A program made the position numbers and the translations under genes. The notes under the pieces are model-generated. The model was given only the letters and a program-made list of their open reading frames with translations, had not been told where the DNA came from and did no database searches. From a virus (taxonomy: Duplodnaviria; Heunggongvirae; Uroviricota; Caudoviricetes), in IMG/VR virus record IMGVR_UViG_3300042922_001472: 64,000 nt of DNA; one strand, written 5' to 3'. This document shows, one piece after another, positions 39,936-48,097 of this stretch. The stretch's first letter is position 1. Each line of letters starts with the position of its first letter.

Positions 39936-42067
39936 TATTGAATAATGAAATAAAAGAACAAATACTTGCTTATTTAACTGATATACCAGTAAATAAAGCG
40001 ATAACGAAATTAAAGTTGGAAAGCGATTTAAAAATTTCTAAGGTTGAGAGGAAGATATTTGAAAATTCGATTAAAGAATTAAAAAAAGAGAATATTGTCC
40101 ACACAACAAAGAAAAAGGGTTTAATGATTAATAAAAATATAAAGTTTATAATTGGAACATTTTTTTCTAATTGTAAAGGTTATGGTTTTGTAGTTTCACA
40201 AGATGAAAGTATTCAAGACCTATTTATTCCACAAAGCAAGGTAAATAACGCACTTCATAAAGATAGAGTTGTAGTAAAGATTATTAAAAGACCTGAAAAT
40301 AACAAAAGGGCAGAAGGTGAAATTATTAGCGTATTGTCAAGACAGTTAGAATCTATAATTGGCACTTATATGGCAAATGAAACCTTTGGATTTGTAATTC
40401 CTGATAACAATAAGATAAATAGAGATATTTATATACCTCAAGGTTGCTCTAATGGTGCAAATTCTTACGATAAAGTAGTTTGTCAAATAACCAAATATCC
40501 TGAAAGAGATAGAAAACCAGAAGGAGAAATAACTGAAATTATTGGAGTTAAATGGGACAAAGGGGTTGATGTGTTATCAATAATTAAAGATAATAATATT
40601 AAATCTGATTTTCCTCCTAAAGTAATTAAATTTGTAGATAAAATTCCTGAAGTGATTAAAGAAGAAGAATTAAAGAGAAGAGAAAATCTAACAGATTTAA
40701 AAATATTTACAATAGATGGCGAAGATGCTAAGGATTTAGACGATGCTGTTTCAATTAAAAAGCTTGATAACGGAAATTACCAGTTAGGTGTTCATATAGC
40801 GGATGTATCACATTATGTTAAGGAAAACTCAGTAATAGATAAGGAAGCTTTAGAAAGAGCAACCTCGGTATATTTAATTGATACTGTTATCCCAATGTTA
40901 CCTAAAAAGTTATCAAATAATCTATGCAGTTTGAATCCTAACACTATTAAATTAACATTGTCAGTATTTATGGATATTGATAAGCATGGAGTAGTAGTAA
41001 ACCATAGAATTTGCGAATCTTTTATCAATACAGTAGCAAGATTAAATTACACAGAAGTTTCAGATTTCTTAGAAAATAATGATACTTCATTTAAAGAGAA
41101 ATATCCATTTTTATTAGAAGATATAAAAATTATGGAAGAGCTTGCTAAAGTATTAATGAAAAAAAGAAATGATAGAGGAGCAATTGATTTTGATTTTCCT
41201 GAAGCTAAGATTATTTTAAATGAAGACGGTAAAGTTAAAGACATAACTAAATATGATAGAAGAATATCTAATAAAATAATTGAAGAATTTATGCTTGTTT
41301 GTAATGAAACTGTAGCTGAGATTTTCTTTTTAAAAGAATTGCCATTTGTTTATAGGGTTCACGAAAATCCAAGGATAGATAAACTTGAAGAATTTAGAGA
41401 ATTTATAAAAGAGTATGGTTATTATCTACCAGAAGATTGTGAATGCATCAATTCTATTATGTTACAAGACATTTTAAATGAAGTTAAAGGTAAAAAGATG
41501 GGGCAAGCCTTTAATCTTGTGCTTTTGAAAACTATGCAACAAGCAAGATATTCACCAATATGTAATGGTCATTTTGGTTTATCAACATCATTTTATTGTC
41601 ATTTTACTTCACCAATACGAAGATACCCAGACCTTCAAATTCATAGAATTATTAAAGAATCATTACATGGAGAATTAAGTGTTATAAGAAAAGAACACTT
41701 AGAAGAAATTGTTAAGAATAGTTCTAAAATATCTTCAAGAAGAGAGAGAGTGGCTGAACAAGCTGAAAATGAACTTCATACAATCAAAAAATTAGAGTTT
41801 ATGGAAGATAAGATTGGTCAAGTATATGAGGGAATAGTGACTGGATTTAATTCAATTGGAATTTTTATTACTCTTGAAAATACTGCAGAGGGTATATTAA
41901 AAATAGATAAAATTAAAGATGATAATTATGAATTAGATAGAAAGCAATTCTCATTTATTGGCAAAAGTACTAATCAAAAAATAATGATAGGTGATAAAAT
42001 TTTAATTTCGGTAAACAAAGTAGACGTTGATTGTAAAGAAATGTTGTTTGATTTCATATCTAAATAA
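39936..42067 (+). CDS. rnr: RNase R / RNase II-family 3'-5' exoribonuclease
   Basis: Cold-shock-like N-terminal domains, RNB catalytic motif DGEDAKDLDDAVS and C-terminal S1. The start is probably TTG 39936, which follows GGAGGA (the ORF track begins at 39920). Confidence 0.8.
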
Positions 42068-42173
42068 ACTAATAGTTACTTAAAAGCCAATCATGGTAAA
42101 TTGAACAACAGAAATAAAAAAAGATTATGTAAAAACATAGTCTTTTTTTATTTGATTTATTATTTACTTTCAA

Positions 42174-45121: not shown

Positions 45122-48097
45122 ATGAAAAATATAGAAAAAGCAACAATGTTATTAAAATGCAAAACACTAAATGAAGGTAGTCTTATATATAAAGCTCCAT
45201 TGAAAGAAACCATAAAAACACCAGCAACTGAATTAGAAAATGGAGATATTCAGTTATGTATCAATAAATATACAACTAATCCTGTTATAATTCCTCATAA
45301 AGATAGATATTTAAATACGCTGATATTAGGTTCTACAGGTGCTGATAAAACCTCACAAATATTACTTCCAATGATTAATCAGGATATGCAAAATCATGAA
45401 TGTGGAATTACAGTAATAGAATCAAAAGCTGACCTTGCAGAAAAGGTATATGCAATGGCAAAGCACTATGGAAGAAAAGTTGTATATTTCAATCCATTAT
45501 TACCTGATTGTCCATCATTTAATCCGTTTTTTGGTGATGAAAATGACGTGATTGAGAATATATCTATGACATTCAGAATGCTAAATTCCGATTATTCACA
45601 ATTCTTCCAAGATATGAATGAACAATTAATTAGATATTCAGTAATAGTTTTAAAAAGATTAATGGGGAATAAAGCTACTTTTGCTGAATTATCAATGCTT
45701 ATACGAAACTCTGATGGAATAGGAAGAAGAATGGTAATTAATTTTTCAAGATTAAGTGCAGAAACAGAAGCCATAGCAAAAGAAAATAGAGATATAGCTT
45801 TATGGTTTTTAACTCAATATTTTGATGAAAAATCAAAAACATATGAGTACTGTGATGGGCTTCGTTCAAAAATTGCAAAAATTATGTCTAATACCCATTT
45901 AAGACAAATATTAAATCCTGATAATGAAGAAAGTGATATAGATTTTAATAAACATCTTACAGAAGGTGGAGTTGTTGTTATTACAACTGCACAAGGAGTT
46001 TTGGGGAATTTAGGCGAATTTCTTGGTTATTCATTAATCCTTAACTTCCAATCAGCAGTATTAAAGAGACCTGGCAATAAAGATTCAAGAATACCTCAGT
46101 TCTTGTATGTAGATGAATTTCAAACATATTCTAACCCAGGATTTAAATATATGCTCTCACAAGGTTATTCATGTCGTGTTGGTTGTCATCTTGCTACGCA
46201 AAATAGAACACTTATGGCAATGGGTGGGGGACAAAACAATAAAAACTTTATTGAATCGATATCTGAAAATGCAAGAAATATAATAATATTCCCAGGTATA
46301 AATACTGTTGATACTAAATATTATTCTGACCAGTTTAGTGAATTACTCAAATATGTTATTCAAAGAGGTATTCCAGTTGAATGCTGTTTTTCTCCACTGG
46401 ATTTAATTTATAGGGAACTTGGAGAAATAACATACTGTGTAATTCAAAATAATACAATACAGCCTCCAGGAGTTGGGATAATTGAATATATTCCAACAGA
46501 ATTAAATGAAAAACTTGATGCAATAATAGAAGAATATAATACTACTATAAAAACCAATAAAGTCATTAAAAAAAGGAATCTTCAAACACTGGATTTTAAA
46601 GAAACTCTTGCAGAATTCTTCAGTCTTGGTCTTTTAAATGGCAACTTCTATCAGAATCAAGAGGAAGTGTTAAAAGATGCTAATGATATATTTCAAAGAG
46701 CACTTGCAGAATGTCCAGAATTTGCAACTAAGTGTGCTATATTTGGTCACAAACAAAATTCACTTAGACTTGTTCCTACAGTTTGGTTAGTTTATCTTTC
46801 TACTTTAGAGGATAAAACTCTATTTAAAAAAGCATTTTCACAAATAATCTCTACATTCGATATGTTGTATGATTTTATGGAAATTGCAAGAAAGGGTAAA
46901 GTAAGAGAAGGTCTTGGTAGAGGAGTTAAAAAAGTAATGAATGATAGATTTATTTCGTTACTTAATGAATATCAGGCATGTCGTTATAAAGGAACAATTT
47001 CAGAAATAGCTAAAGTTACAAGACCTATAAATAACGATGATAACTTCCAAAAGATTATGAAATATGTATCTAAGGATGAATTGACTTTTGAGCGTATTAT
47101 AGCATTAAAGGGAGTTATTGATAAAATGCTCAATGGAGAATCAAGTAATGAAATCCTTCAAACGATAAAAGAAAATAGGTTGCAATTAGAGGAACTTAAA
47201 CATTCTACTTTCAAATTAACACAAGAAGGTAAGCAAAAGATTTACAGTGCTCTTTATGAAGGAATTAATTATTCTGCACTTGTTCGTAATCTTGTTGCTT
47301 TGGAAAGAGTGTTTGCAACTAAAACAGAAAGTGTTGAAAAATATTCACAAGCAAGAGGTTTCTTTACTCAAACTATAGTGCTTGAAACAGATATTCCATC
47401 AGCAATTGTTGACATGGTTTCTAATAGATTAAATGATGTTAGTATGTATAGAAAATCTAACATGTTGCCATTTGGATTATTAACAGCAGAAAAAATGAGC
47501 ATTACTCCAGAGTTTCAACAAGCACTTGGGAAAATGCTAAGAAACACTGCAGAAGATTCCTTTAAAATTAATAAGGATATTTCAATTTTGCTTGGTGTAG
47601 ATACTTCTGGTTCTATGTCTGGAAATATGGTAAATGATTCATTAGATTGTGCAGAGGTTTCTTCTGTATTTGGTTCTTTAATTAAAAAAGCCCATGCAAA
47701 TACAGATGTCTATGCAGTTGCGTCTACCATGAAAAAGGTTAATTTAAACAAGCAAGACGATGTATTTGAAATGTCAAGGAAAATTCAGGCAACGAATGTT
47801 GGATGTGGAACTTTATTTAATCAAATAATGAAGCATTATAATGGACAAAAGTACATTATCTTAATTACTGATAATGAACCAGCCGATAACTTAGAAAAAG
47901 CATGGTTATCAGCTAAGAATAAACCAGAGGGTGCAAAGCTTATTATTTGGAAAATGGTAGCCAATAAAAACAAAACTTCAAATGATAAATCTGTTGCTCA
48001 TGTATTTGGATATTCAGACCGAGTATTAGGGTTAATTAAGAATATCATTGAAGACAAATGTGGACAAGTTGAGGAAATTGAGAAGATAATAATTTAA
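45122..48097 (+). CDS. fusion protein: soluble TraG/VirD4-like (T4CP-type) P-loop NTPase domain + Ro60/Rsr-like TROVE domain + C-terminal vWA domain
   Basis: N-terminal half has an atypical Walker A LILGSTGADKTS, the T4CP-like block KVVYFNP...SFNPF, Walker B LYVDEF and HLATQN. C-terminal half carries Ro60-like blocks FQRALAECPEFATKCAIF, LRLVPTVWLVYL, GRGVKKVMNDRF, YSALVRNLVAL, NMLPFGLL, MIDAS LGVDTSGSM, ILITDNEP and AKLIIW. RBS AAAGGAGAT. Confidence 0.75.
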   Translation: MKNIEKATMLLKCKTLNEGSLIYKAPLKETIKTPATELENGDIQLCINKYTTNPVIIPHKDRYLNTLILGSTGADKTSQILLPMINQDMQNHECGITVIESKADLAEKVYAMAKHYGRKVVYFNPLLPDCPSFNPFFGDENDVIENISMTFRMLNSDYSQFFQDMNEQLIRYSVIVLKRLMGNKATFAELSMLIRNSDGIGRRMVINFSRLSAETEAIAKENRDIALWFLTQYFDEKSKTYEYCDGLRSKIAKIMSNTHLRQILNPDNEESDIDFNKHLTEGGVVVITTAQGVLGNLGEFLGYSLILNFQSAVLKRPGNKDSRIPQFLYVDEFQTYSNPGFKYMLSQGYSCRVGCHLATQNRTLMAMGGGQNNKNFIESISENARNIIIFPGINTVDTKYYSDQFSELLKYVIQRGIPVECCFSPLDLIYRELGEITYCVIQNNTIQPPGVGIIEYIPTELNEKLDAIIEEYNTTIKTNKVIKKRNLQTLDFKETLAEFFSLGLLNGNFYQNQEEVLKDANDIFQRALAECPEFATKCAIFGHKQNSLRLVPTVWLVYLSTLEDKTLFKKAFSQIISTFDMLYDFMEIARKGKVREGLGRGVKKVMNDRFISLLNEYQACRYKGTISEIAKVTRPINNDDNFQKIMKYVSKDELTFERIIALKGVIDKMLNGESSNEILQTIKENRLQLEELKHSTFKLTQEGKQKIYSALYEGINYSALVRNLVALERVFATKTESVEKYSQARGFFTQTIVLETDIPSAIVDMVSNRLNDVSMYRKSNMLPFGLLTAEKMSITPEFQQALGKMLRNTAEDSFKINKDISILLGVDTSGSMSGNMVNDSLDCAEVSSVFGSLIKKAHANTDVYAVASTMKKVNLNKQDDVFEMSRKIQATNVGCGTLFNQIMKHYNGQKYIILITDNEPADNLEKAWLSAKNKPEGAKLIIWKMVANKNKTSNDKSVAHVFGYSDRVLGLIKNIIEDKCGQVEEIEKIII

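What the first reader, a model, noticed from the sequence alone, without database searches (positions are those of the whole stretch)
39936..48097. Co-localised RNA surveillance/repair gene set on a mobile replicon (RNase R, Ro60-like fusion, candidate RNA array; CCA-adding enzyme and HD-GYP protein about 25 kb upstream)
In Deinococcus and Salmonella, Ro60/Rsr works with 3'-5' exoribonucleases, and Y RNA tethers the nuclease to the Ro ring. Here an RNB/S1 exoribonuclease gene (39936-42067) lies 3 kb from the TROVE-containing gene, with an XRE-headed minus-strand operon in between. The same replicon also encodes a CCA-adding enzyme with an HD domain (13648-15156), directly followed by an HD-GYP protein.

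Together these would give the element its own machinery for RNA 3'-end repair and degradation. That is plausible as a counter-defence against anticodon nucleases or RNA-targeting immunity.
Basis: inference. Interest (0 to 1): 0.55.

Follow-up and report, generated by a model that had tools for sequence, protein, structure and literature searches.

The report
Plasmid Ro60 gene with Y-RNA array
A giant plasmid carries the gene for Ro60, a ring-shaped RNA quality-control protein (here oddly interrupted by a piece of a DNA-transfer motor), directly behind five small RNA genes that resemble Ro60's known partner RNAs and near an RNA-degrading enzyme; the wider "RNA repair island" idea is only partly borne out.

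Summary
The core is a Ro60/Y-RNA module of a Bacillota megaplasmid family (relatives: B. thuringiensis BTB_502p, P. polymyxa pSC2, a 721-kb Aneurinibacillus plasmid).

The module reads: divergent XRE regulator, promoter, five structured RNA genes (44078-45017), terminator-like hairpin, Ro60 gene.

The RNAs share a covarying closing module. It is found upstream of this Ro60 clade in all 18 loci with upstream sequence. In four relatives Rfam's YrlA (Y RNA-like) model aligns to it end to end, below threshold. The five window units lack YrlA's tRNA-like domain.

The 991-aa protein is not an N-terminal fusion. It is a Ro60 with a type IV coupling-protein ATPase domain inserted after residue ~30. 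A 12-15-nt near-duplication flanks the insert, and Walker A is degenerate. No second example turned up among 1.84 billion representative proteins.

RNase R has an intact catalytic motif and belongs to a plasmid-borne clade. It shares at least 7 other large contigs with this Ro60, but adjacency recurs in only one plasmid. The CCA/HD and HD-GYP genes are real but unlinked.

Verdict: a known kind of system with new variations. The counter-defence reading is untested.

The parts
39920..42067 (+). RNase R (RNB-family 3'-5' exoribonuclease). The likely start is TTG at 39938.
   Evidence: TIGR02063 at 777 bits against a 598 cut-off, with RNB/CSD2/OB/S1 domains. Motif DGEDAKDLDD is present. The closest homologs are plasmid-borne.
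42174..43427 (-). Three ORFs of unknown function (147, 166 and 66 aa) downstream of the XRE gene. They appear to be variable cargo.
   Evidence: No Pfam, PADLOC or PHROG hits. No homologs in related loci.
43516..43773 (-). XRE-family HTH regulator, transcribed divergently from the RNA array.
   Evidence: HTH_26 at E 2e-13. Homologs of 67-73% identity sit in the same divergent position in L004, L006, L008 and L009.
43890..43917 (+). Consensus sigma-70 promoter (TTGACA, 16 nt, TG-n-TATAAT) facing the RNA array.
   Evidence: 12 of 12 hexamer matches with an extended -10.
43975..44067 (.). Two copies of a 19-nt AT-rich element (43975-43993 and 44049-44067). Candidate operator or promoter.
   Evidence: Repeat D6. 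A matching element lies just upstream of the first unit in L003, L004, L006 and L009.
44078..44210 (+). Y RNA-like unit U1.
   Evidence: 5' motif. P1 and P2 pairing. Fold z-score -2.8.
44307..44434 (+). Y RNA-like unit U2.
   Evidence: (z -2.9). The P1 register TTTCGGGG/CTCTGAAA was read by eye.
44440..44637 (+). Y RNA-like unit U3.
44719..44817 (+). Y RNA-like unit U4. The same GTT-type unit sits next-to-last in the arrays of L002, L004 and L005.
   Evidence: (z -3.2).
44828..45017 (+). Y RNA-like unit U5. Its 5' 22-mer is identical to that of L018_6422, which Rfam YrlA aligns end to end.
45038..45070 (+). Terminator-like hairpin plus T-tract that closes the RNA array.
   Evidence: The palindrome was reported on the minus strand. 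On the + strand it is GGATAAG..CTTATCC followed by TTTTAT, read directly. Equivalent hairpins lie in L141, L002, L003 and L005.
45122..45211 (+). Ro60 N-terminal segment (aa 1-30), including the EGxLxY strand and the left copy of the junction duplication (TTG AAA GAA ACC ATA at 45200).
   Evidence: Compared with the N-termini of P0121 and P0123, and collinear with L141.
45212..46594 (+). Inserted type IV coupling-protein nucleotide-binding domain (aa 31 to ~476) plus a linker. No TM segment. Walker A reads GSTGADKT.
   Evidence: 69% identity to aa 151-630 of the paralog P0002. Relative-rate and invariant-site counts. dN/dS 0.22.
46595..48097 (+). Ro60 body: HEAT-repeat (TROVE) ring plus a vWA domain with the MIDAS motif DTSGS. 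It begins with the right copy of the duplication (TTT AAA GAA ACT CTT).
   Evidence: vWA_Ro60 PF25045. AF2 pLDDT 89.8. Foldseek top hit D. radiodurans Rsr 2nvo, TM 0.73. phrog_850.
13648..15156 (+). Class II CCA-adding-type nucleotidyltransferase with an HD domain. It is on the same replicon but not linked to the module.
15210..15803 (+). Stand-alone HD-GYP domain protein. Not linked to the module.
   Evidence: HD_5 at E 4e-31. The HHERIDGKGYP motif is present.

Best explanation
**What it is.** The region holds the Ro60/Y-RNA ribonucleoprotein module of a large, conjugative-type Bacillota plasmid.

**Layout.** An XRE repressor gene is transcribed divergently from a strong promoter and operator-like region. 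That region drives a ~1.1-kb non-coding operon of five Y RNA-like genes, which ends at a terminator-like hairpin. The Ro60 gene follows.

**The RNAs.** Each RNA is closed by the same module:
- an outer stem (GRGG/CCYY, extended to 6-9 bp);
- an asymmetric internal loop (5' UGCN; 3' 5-9 nt ending in U's);
- an 8-bp inner stem (NNNAAGAY/RUCUUNNN);
- an invariant UACAU.

This is the layout that Rfam's YrlA model has for its 5'/3' closing stem, the long stem where Y RNAs hold their Ro60-binding site. The five RNAs differ in their internal parts.

**Inferred mechanism.** Ro60 binds this module on its outer surface. The variable interiors act as adaptors or gates, as shown for Y RNAs elsewhere.

**The protein.** Here Ro60 carries an inserted, TM-less coupling-protein ATPase domain with a degenerate P-loop. 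The insert is still under purifying selection, so it probably serves as an oligomerisation or docking domain rather than as a motor.

**Neighbours.** The RNase R 3 kb upstream is the most plausible nuclease partner, but that link is circumstantial. The CCA/HD and HD-GYP genes ~30 kb away are independent plasmid cargo.
For: **Ro60 identity.**
- AF2 model: pLDDT 89.8, pTM 0.83.
- Full-length Foldseek matches to D. radiodurans Rsr (TM 0.73), Xenopus and human Ro60, and the phage phiLo Ro60.
- Pfam vWA_Ro60 is above its cut-off, and the MIDAS motif DTSGS is present.

**RNA family.**
- The motif occurs 5 times against 0 expected.
- Units lie upstream on the same strand in all 18 loci of this Ro60 clade that have upstream sequence: Bacillota plasmids, Clostridia and Spirochaete MAGs, the P. 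cellulosolvens chromosome and two IMG/VR contigs.
- With the 3' half located independently of the variable bases, 2.72 of 3 variable positions pair, against 1.45 +/- 0.11 for shuffled partners.
- On 56 units, 97.9% of cells pair against 82.5% shuffled, and 8 of 12 pairs show double changes. Covariation is 0.494 against 0.184, with 0 of 500 shuffles reaching it. Slid controls give 47-61%.
- P1 extends by a mean of 3.3 bp, against 0.66 in a control.

**Relation to YrlA.**
- RF02553 aligns over the full model to four such units in relatives, at 40-45 bits and E from 1e-5 to 6e-9 depending on how much sequence was searched.
- The stems, the UGC loop and CUA are placed as in these units.

**Operon structure.** Promoter, terminator-like hairpin, and a conserved divergent XRE gene.

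**Insertion.**
- The N-terminus is homologous to that of stand-alone Ro60s, and the locus is collinear with L141.
- A near-duplication flanks the insert.
- dN/dS is 0.22.
- 3-5.5 stop codons would be expected if the insert were unconstrained.

**RNase R.** The catalytic motif is present. It falls in a plasmid clade that shares contig lengths with Ro60 relatives. It has the same relative position in the Aneurinibacillus plasmid.

**Precedent.** Mobile-element Ro60 with upstream Y-like RNAs is known from Thermus phage phiLo (PMC12135203) and mycobacteriophages (PMC4201824).
Against: - There are no expression or binding data.
- The five window units lack the tRNA-like T and D arms and the GNCGAAN0-1G motif that define YrlA. 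They give no Rfam hit even at E <= 10.
- The units counted were picked partly by complementarity. controls for this.
- The Ro60 is interrupted by a 460-aa insert. Walker A Gly is replaced by Asp, and 32 otherwise invariant T4CP positions are changed. The protein could therefore be impaired.
- The insertion is a singleton from one metagenome.
- RNase R adjacency recurs in only one other locus.
- No RNase R match appeared for three complete related plasmids among the 40 of 99 records listed. Co-occurrence may only reflect a common backbone.
Confidence: 0.7

Rival explanations
1. RNase R, Ro60, the RNA array, the CCA/HD enzyme and the HD-GYP protein form one co-selected RNA 3'-end repair and degradation kit. 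The plasmid uses it as a counter-defence against anticodon nucleases or RNA-targeting immunity.
For: - All the genes are present and look catalytically intact.
- RNase R and Ro60 share at least 7 other large contigs.
- A CCA/HD homolog of 48% identity lies on BTB_502p.
- M. smegmatis YrlA undergoes CCA addition (PMC4201824).
- The phiLo paper proposes hijacking of host PNPase to escape defence (PMC12135203).
Against: - The set is not conserved as a unit. No CCA match appeared for pSC2, Aneurinibacillus or B. halotolerans among the 40 of 60 records listed.
- In BTB_502p the CCA gene is 46 kb from the TROVE gene and has no HD-GYP neighbour.
- No RNase R match appeared for BTB_502p, pSC2 or B. 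halotolerans among the listed records.
- Neither an RNA ligase nor a cyclase was found in the window.
- PADLOC gave no defence-system model for these proteins; only the two small HTH regulators gave weak hits.
- These plasmids carry many housekeeping-like genes (DnaE, RecG, guanylate kinase), so co-presence is expected from shared descent.
Confidence: 0.1
2. The module is decaying in this element. The coupling-protein insertion disabled Ro60, and the array and gene are relics. The long ORF persists only because the event is recent.
For: - The insertion is a singleton.
- Walker A has G to D, and evolution of the insert is accelerated: 56-61% identity to outgroup T4CPs against 68-75% for the paralog.
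- The EGG of the N-terminal strand has become EGS.
Against: - dN/dS against the paralog is 0.22.
- A 483-codon AT-rich stretch without a stop has P ~0.004-0.04 if the extra replacements were neutral.
- The Ro60 body is 73% identical to its closest stand-alone relative, and the MIDAS motif and nearly invariant residues are kept.
- The five RNA units keep both stems.
Confidence: 0.13
3. The repeated RNA elements are not Ro60 ligands. They could be processing or stability signals of a tRNA/sRNA operon, or sRNAs controlled by the XRE regulator, that merely sit next to Ro60.
For: - tRNA genes are interleaved with the units in L018, L011 and L014.
- The window units lack YrlA's defining tRNA-like domain.
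- No binding data exist.
Against: - The association with this Ro60 clade is strict: same strand, directly upstream, in all 18 loci across phyla and replicon types, with or without tRNA genes.
- The closing module aligns with the closing-stem portion of the YrlA model.
Confidence: 0.07
4. The T4CP-in-Ro60 architecture is an assembly chimera.
For: - The source is metagenome-derived and a singleton.
- A paralogous T4CP lies on the same contig, sharing exact words of up to 39 nt.
Against: - The insert is only 69% identical in protein to that paralog, so it is not a collapsed repeat.
- Both junctions are in frame and are flanked by a 12-15-nt near-duplication of Ro60 sequence.
- The same protein is recorded on contigs of two different lengths, 240,554 and 534,699 bp.
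Confidence: 0.05

Closest known systems
Bacterial Ro60 (Rsr) with YrlA-type Y RNAs (Rfam RF02553; Chen et al. 2014, PMC4201824)
   Same: - The RNAs lie within 4 kb upstream of Ro60, on the same strand.
- The RNA is closed by a 5'/3' stem with an outer stem, an asymmetric loop containing UGC, a 7-8-bp inner stem and then CUA. Four relatives' units align to the full YrlA model.
- The protein has the Ro60 ring plus vWA fold.
   Different: - The window's five RNAs lack the tRNA-like T and D arms and the GNCGAAN0-1G motif. They score nothing against RF02553.
- Arrays hold 5-10 units, whereas one or a few Y RNAs have been reported for the species studied so far.
- The protein is ~17% identical to solved Ro60s, and Pfam TROVE does not match it.
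- The Ro60 carries an inserted ATPase domain.
Thermus phage phiLo Ro60 with Yrl1/Yrl2 (PDB 9KOP, 9L5Y; PMC12135203) and mycobacteriophage Ro60/YrlA
   Same: - Ro60 is encoded by a mobile element, with Y-like RNA genes directly upstream.
- It is the best sequence-level PDB match.
- A counter-defence role has been proposed for it.
   Different: - phiLo relies on host PNPase and encodes no nuclease.
- Its Yrls were identified through CGAA motifs, which are not conserved here.
- It has no inserted domain.
- It is a phage rather than a megaplasmid.
RYPER (Rsr, Y RNA and PNPase) and Rsr with RNase II/RNase PH in D. radiodurans
   Same: Ro60 is paired with a 3'-5' exoribonuclease. RNase R is an RNB-family relative of RNase II.
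   Different: - No evidence of a physical or functional link here.
- The nuclease is RNase R, and it is encoded by the plasmid.
- Adjacency is conserved in only one other plasmid.
Type IV secretion coupling proteins (VirD4/TraG/TraD)
   Same: Residues 31-476 are 55-69% identical to the nucleotide-binding and all-alpha domains of megaplasmid T4CPs.
   Different: - No N-terminal membrane anchor and no C-terminal tail.
- Walker A Gly is replaced by Asp, and 32 invariant positions are changed.
- It is embedded inside another protein.
- A TM-less tandem-NBD relative exists (P0352).

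Membership tests
Ro60/TROVE (Rsr) | Closed ring of HEAT-like helical repeats capped by a vWA domain. | tested here: met
   AF2 pLDDT 89.8. Foldseek full-length matches to 2nvo, 1yvp, 9nen and 9kop at E 1e-12 to 6e-16 and TM 0.55-0.73.
Ro60/TROVE (Rsr) | MIDAS motif (DxSxS) in the vWA domain, with Pfam vWA_Ro60 above its gathering score. 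| tested here: met
   VDTSGSMSG is present. PF25045 scores 36.5 bits against a 27.7 cut-off.
Ro60/TROVE (Rsr) | Sequence match to Pfam TROVE (PF05731). | tested here: not met
   No PF05731 hit at E <= 0.01 for this protein. Only a few distant clade members carry it.
Ro60/TROVE (Rsr) | Binds Y RNA on the outer surface and single-stranded 3' ends in the central hole. | not testable with these tools
   Needs binding assays or a structure of the complex.
YrlA Y RNA-like (RF02553) | Encoded within ~4 kb of the Ro60 gene, on the same strand. | tested here: met
   Units lie 105-1044 nt upstream of the start codon, on the + strand.
YrlA Y RNA-like (RF02553) | Long 5'/3' closing stem with an asymmetric internal loop (the Ro-binding module). 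| tested here: met
   Covariation. The same layout and the UGC and CUA residues appear in the YrlA consensus alignment.
YrlA Y RNA-like (RF02553) | tRNA-like module (T arm, D arm) and the GNCGAAN0-1G motif. | tested here: not met
   No GNCGAAN0-1G and no GTTCRA in U1-U5. ARAGORN finds 0 tRNAs.
YrlA Y RNA-like (RF02553) | Rfam gathering score of 69 bits. | tested here: not met
   The window gives no hit at E <= 10. Relatives' units reach 40-45 bits.
RNase R (TIGR02063) | Equivalog score above the cut-off, with CSD/OB, RNB and S1 domains. | tested here: met
   777 bits against 598. Domains.
RNase R (TIGR02063) | RNB catalytic aspartate cluster. | tested here: met
   DGEDAKDLDD at aa 266-275.
Type IV coupling protein (VirD4/TraG) | N-terminal transmembrane anchor. 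| tested here: not met
   Homology starts at aa 151 of the 726-aa paralog. The preceding 30 aa are Ro60 sequence.
Type IV coupling protein (VirD4/TraG) | Canonical Walker A, GxxGxGK[ST]. | tested here: not met
   The insert reads GSTGADKT where the paralog reads GPTGSGKT. G75D falls at a column invariant in 13 T4CPs.
Class II CCA-adding enzyme with HD domain | Head-domain motifs (GGxVRD, DxD, RRD) plus an HD domain. | tested here: met
   GGYVRD, DIDV and RRRD. PolyA_pol, PolyA_pol_RNAbd and HD domains.
Class II CCA-adding enzyme with HD domain | NCBIfam equivalog cut-off. | tested here: not met
   The best model, NF008137, scores 178.6 bits against a 451 cut-off.
HD-GYP phosphodiesterase | HD_5 domain with the HHExxDGxGYP motif. 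| tested here: met
   HD_5 at E 4e-31. HHERIDGKGYP is present.
RNA repair operon (RtcB/RtcA with Rsr, as in Salmonella) | RNA ligase RtcB and/or cyclase RtcA next to rsr. | tested here: not met
   No such domains among the window ORFs of 100 aa or more scanned with Pfam.
Known anti-phage defence systems (PADLOC) | Match to a PADLOC protein model. | tested here: not met
   No hit for the Ro60 protein, RNase R or the unknown ORFs. Only weak HTH-level hits for the two small regulators.

The most novel reading that the evidence does not exclude
The coupling-protein domain inserted into Ro60 is a docking or oligomerisation module. It either co-assembles with the plasmid's full-length T4CP hexamer at the secretion channel, or forms its own hexamer. 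In the first case the Ro60/Y-RNA particle is coupled to the conjugation machinery. RNP or RNA could then be delivered to recipient cells at plasmid entry, or several Ro60 rings could be arrayed around one nucleic-acid-threading ring. The evidence does not exclude this. The domain is kept under purifying selection despite a dead-looking P-loop, and TM-less T4CP-NBD derivatives recur in this plasmid group.
Probability: 0.06. Interest if true: 0.85.

Novelty: new variant of a known kind. Interest (0 to 1): 0.45.

Why it matters
**The RNAs.** Bacterial Y RNAs have been studied mainly through YrlA-type RNAs with a tRNA-like domain. This clade shows the same Ro-binding-type closing module used as a cassette around many unrelated interiors.
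- Arrays hold up to ten units, on megaplasmids, chromosomes and putative viral contigs.
- Rfam misses most of these units.
- That gives a defined, testable set of adaptor RNAs, and a motif (GRGGUGC-N4-AAGAY-UACAU ... RUCUU-N3 ... UUUCCYY) for finding more.

**The nuclease.** The recurrent presence of a plasmid-clade RNase R on the same replicons nominates a new candidate nuclease partner for Ro60.

**The insertion.** A secretion-ATPase domain inserted inside Ro60 is a natural experiment on what can be attached to the Ro ring. If it proves functional, it would link RNA surveillance to plasmid transfer.

Tried and rejected
**No nucleotide-level relatives or curated RNA family.**
- Megablast of 39900-48100 against the phage and plasmid collections found nothing. 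Relatives were reached only through proteins.
- Rfam found nothing in the window at gathering threshold. At E <= 10 in the array it gave only chance-level hits.

**Alternative readings of the repeats, all rejected.**
- CRISPR array or tandem repeat: spacing is irregular at 112-277 nt, and the repeats form paired 5' and 3' halves.
- Mini-ORF behind the SD-like GAGGTG: most units have no start codon in register.
- Spacers between units (44203-44310 and 44634-44720) as a second RNA class: fold z-scores are only -0.8 and -1.3, and no similar sequence exists in other loci.

**Searches that gave little.**
- An exact-pattern scan of the viral collection returned mostly single hits, consistent with chance. 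Only the contig that also encodes a Ro60 relative had an array.
- PADLOC and PHROGs gave nothing for the unknown ORFs.

**Full-length AF2 of the 991-aa protein was not run.** MAFFT misaligned the coupling-protein rows (A4). In A5 it placed the homologs' N-terminal strand beside the right-hand junction instead of at residues 17-26.

**Papers not available.** The Chen 2014 supplementary species tables and the 2020 Annual Review (PMC10870794) are not held. I could not check whether any of these loci was already listed as YrlA-positive.

Full report
**Source and setting**

The window is about 26% G+C. It has no tRNA genes and no Rfam family at gathering score. It has no nucleotide-level relative in the phage or plasmid collections.

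The 991-aa protein is recorded as a hypothetical protein (K0R54_154) of a Clostridiaceae bacterium MAG, and its paralog P0002 lies on contig JAQSXU010000001.1 of assembly GCA_029256485.1. The protein occurs on contigs of 240,554 and 534,699 bp.

The window encodes DnaE, RecG, a 5'-3' exonuclease, guanylate kinase, SPFH/NfeD, a ParM-like actin and MazF. The same contig has a full-length type IV coupling protein (T4CP), a relaxase-like gene and Tad-like genes.

Gene order matches Bacillota megaplasmids:
- In B. thuringiensis Bt407 BTB_502p the order is HD protein, guanylate kinase, MazF, ParM, RecG, TROVE gene.
- In a 721-kb Aneurinibacillus plasmid the order is RecG, RNase R, HTH gene (minus strand), a 2.75-kb gap, Ro60-like gene, then PrcB and a methyltransferase.

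"Mobile replicon" is therefore a fair description.

**The observation**

All the named genes are real.
- RNase R (39920-42067) passes the TIGR02063 equivalog cut-off and keeps the catalytic aspartate cluster. Its start is probably TTG at 39938.
- The minus-strand operon is headed by an XRE HTH gene. Its three other ORFs have no recognisable family and no homologs in related loci.
- The gene at 13648-15156 has class II CCA-adding motifs plus an HD domain, although it falls below the NCBIfam equivalog cut-offs.
- The next gene is a true HD-GYP protein.

**The RNA array**

The 1.35-kb gap upstream of the Ro60 gene contains five + strand copies of GGTGC-N4-AAGAY-TACAT, against none expected.

Each copy is matched 75-180 nt downstream by RTCTT-N3, then 5-9 nt ending in T's, then CCYY. 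The pairings are:
- The N3 and the Y of the 5' half pair with the 3' half.
- GRGG pairs with CCYY.
- This outer stem continues for a mean of 3.3 further base pairs, against 0.66 in a shifted control.

The same two-part element lies directly upstream of the Ro60-like gene, on the same strand, in every related locus that has upstream sequence:
- four complete plasmids;
- twelve genome or MAG contigs spanning Bacillota, Spirochaetota and the P. cellulosolvens chromosome;
- two IMG/VR contigs.

Each locus has 1-10 units.

Covariation is strong.
- With the 3' half located without reference to the variable bases, 2.72 of 3 variable positions pair, against 1.45 +/- 0.11 for shuffled partners. The Y:R pair is C-G 34 times, U-A 14 times and U-G twice.
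- On 56 units reduced to fixed-length constructs, 97.9% of cells pair. Eight of 12 pairs show double changes. No shuffle reaches the covariation score, and slid controls fall to 47-61%.
- Those constructs were chosen partly by complementarity, which is why the independent count matters.
- Rare units even change the "invariant" box in a compensated way: AACUC/GAGUU in L016, and AAGAG/CUCUU and AAGUC/GACUU in L139.

A consensus promoter (43890-43917) and two copies of an AT-rich element precede the array. The AT-rich element is conserved upstream of other arrays. A terminator-like hairpin with a T-tract (45038-45070) follows, as in relatives. The divergent XRE gene is conserved in four relatives.

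**What the RNAs are**

Rfam's YrlA model (RF02553) aligns from end to end with four of these units in relatives: two in P. cellulosolvens, one in an Acetivibrio MAG and one in a Treponema MAG. Scores are 40-45 bits against a gathering score of 69, with E-values from 1e-5 to 6e-9 depending on how much sequence was searched.

The printed alignment puts the outer stem, the 5' loop (consensus AUGCu), the inner stem and the following CUA on the matching parts of the model. It finds T- and D-arm-like hairpins in the interior. One of those units has the same 5' 22-mer as window unit U5.

The closing module is therefore the YrlA closing stem. That is the long 5'/3' stem which, in characterised Y RNAs, contains the Ro60-binding site (PMC4201824).

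The window's five units, and all 19 units in the two other megaplasmid arrays that were scanned (L004, L006), have this module but no tRNA-like interior and no GNCGAAN0-1G motif. They give no Rfam hit. They are best described as minimal Y RNA-like genes that share YrlA's protein-binding end.

Unit order is partly conserved between arrays. A GGGG...GTT unit comes next to last, and a GAGG...(G/A)(G/A)A unit comes last. This suggests old, distinct paralogs rather than recent duplication.

**The protein**

Residues 492-991 are 55-73% identical to stand-alone ~525-aa "RNA-binding proteins" of the related plasmids. The AF2 model (pLDDT 89.8) matches D. radiodurans Rsr, Xenopus and human Ro60, and the Thermus phage phiLo Ro60 over its full length.

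Residues 31-483 are 69% identical to residues 151-630 of a full-length T4CP on the same contig.

Comparison with the closest relative (L141, stand-alone Ro60 at 73% identity) shows the true architecture.
- The last RNA unit's 3' half, the terminator-like hairpin, the ribosome-binding site and the first 26 residues are collinear between the two loci.
- Those residues are MKNIEK...NEGSLIYKAP in the window and MKNVEK...HEGGLVYQMS in L141.
- The T4CP domain is therefore inserted into Ro60 after its N-terminal strand.

The insert is flanked by near-identical 12-15-nt copies of Ro60 sequence: TTG AAA GAA ACC ATA at 45200 and TTT AAA GAA ACT CTT at 46595. This argues for a real insertion event rather than a chimeric assembly.

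The insert lacks the membrane anchor and the C-terminal tail. Its Walker A reads GSTGADKT. It has changed 32 positions that are invariant in 13 T4CPs, against 5 such changes in the paralog.

Even so, dN/dS against the paralog is 0.22. Three to five stop codons would be expected if the extra replacements had been neutral. The domain is probably retained for a non-catalytic role.

A scan of 1.84 billion representative proteins found no other protein that joins the two parts. The top hit is a TM-less tandem of two T4CP nucleotide-binding domains.

**Are the genes a set?**

Ro60 and the RNA array always travel together. The XRE gene often accompanies them.

RNase R gives a mixed picture.
- Its closest homologs (54-64% identity) lie on large contigs whose lengths equal those of Ro60-bearing contigs: 721,710; 739,256; 887,875; 426,386; 380,590; 234,704; and 180,314 bp. 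Chromosomal clostridial RNase R proteins are 49-53% identical.
- It is therefore a recurrent plasmid gene, and unlikely to be the host's only copy. I could not inspect host chromosomes to confirm that.
- It lies within 8 kb of Ro60 only in the window and in the Aneurinibacillus plasmid.
- No match for BTB_502p, pSC2 or the B. halotolerans plasmid appeared among the 40 records listed out of 99. In BTB_502p, the slot between RecG and the TROVE gene holds a permease and a dehydrogenase instead.

The CCA/HD gene has a 48%-identical homolog only on BTB_502p. There it is 46 kb from the TROVE gene and has no HD-GYP neighbour.

Neither an RNA ligase nor a cyclase is in the window, and no defence-system model matches beyond weak hits to the two HTH regulators.

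The large-scale "kit" is therefore not a conserved unit. A shared plasmid backbone can explain what co-occurrence there is.

**Mechanism**

Shown:
- a Ro60-fold protein;
- a conserved, covarying RNA family tied to it, with the YrlA closing module;
- an independent promoter-to-hairpin RNA operon with a conserved divergent regulator gene;
- an intact RNase R nearby.

Inferred from established work on Y RNAs (PMC4201824, PMC12135203):
- The RNAs bind the outer face of the Ro60 ring through the closing module.
- Their different interiors gate the ring or tether it to partners.
- RNase R is the obvious candidate partner, by analogy with RNase II, RNase PH and PNPase in Deinococcus.

Speculative: the inserted T4CP domain multimerises the particle or docks it at the conjugation apparatus.

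**Verdict**

This is a known kind of system, a mobile-element Ro60 with its Y RNA-like genes. It has three new variations:
- minimal multi-copy Y-like RNAs that Rfam does not capture;
- a singleton domain insertion in Ro60;
- a plasmid-clade RNase R as a recurrent companion.

Its interpretation is partly supported.

Noticed in passing
L018 5502-6885; L011 681-1399; L014 7265-7432: Ordinary tRNA genes (7, 7 and 2) are interleaved with, or directly precede, the Y RNA-like units upstream of Ro60 in chromosomal and MAG relatives. The window's array has none.
   Followed up: partly
L004 13791-13858; L006 7802-7872: A tRNA-like element sits between the last Y-like unit and the Ro60 start codon in two megaplasmids. 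Rfam tRNA scores it at 49-52 bits, and ARAGORN does not call the one in L004.
   Followed up: no
L004 12700-13380: A ~700-nt G+C-rich non-coding stretch lies inside the Aneurinibacillus array, between units 7 and 8. It has no Rfam match at E <= 5 and could be another large structured RNA.
   Followed up: no
L002 10570-10880; L005 8020-8440: A TTGACT promoter-like site is followed by a ~300-nt non-coding stretch. It lies upstream of the arrays in pSC2 and the B. halotolerans plasmid, with a T-tract hairpin at its end in pSC2. Neither locus gave an Rfam hit at gathering score.
   Followed up: no
P0352 (901 aa; metagenomic): This protein consists of two tandem TM-less T4CP nucleotide-binding domains, 46% and 40% identical to the insert. 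Soluble T4CP-NBD derivatives therefore recur in this plasmid group.
   Followed up: partly
window 48341-48577 (-) and 49084-50217 (+): A second small XRE-type HTH gene lies downstream of Ro60. It is followed by a 377-aa DUF1173-like protein that is also present downstream of Ro60 in the closest relative, L141.
   Followed up: no
window 51545-52903 (+): A 452-aa ORF with no Pfam family has homologs of 31-53% identity 3-12 kb downstream of Ro60 in all four complete related plasmids. It is a conserved backbone neighbour of unknown function.
   Followed up: no
window 56-2972 (+): A MoxR-like AAA_5 ATPase fragment at the window edge is followed by a 752-aa ORF with no Pfam hit.
   Followed up: no
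window 23431-24886 and 61937-63415 (+): An NfeD/SPFH pair and a separate flotillin-like SPFH protein are encoded on the plasmid, next to many housekeeping-like genes: DnaE 4082-7927, 5'-3' exonuclease 16769-17962, and a guanylate kinase with a long C-terminal extension at 25033-26091.
   Followed up: no
window 42700-43200 (-): The 166-aa ORF of the XRE-headed operon gives a weak NCBIfam match (E 0.009) to the N-terminal region of ThiI. This is too weak to interpret.
   Followed up: no
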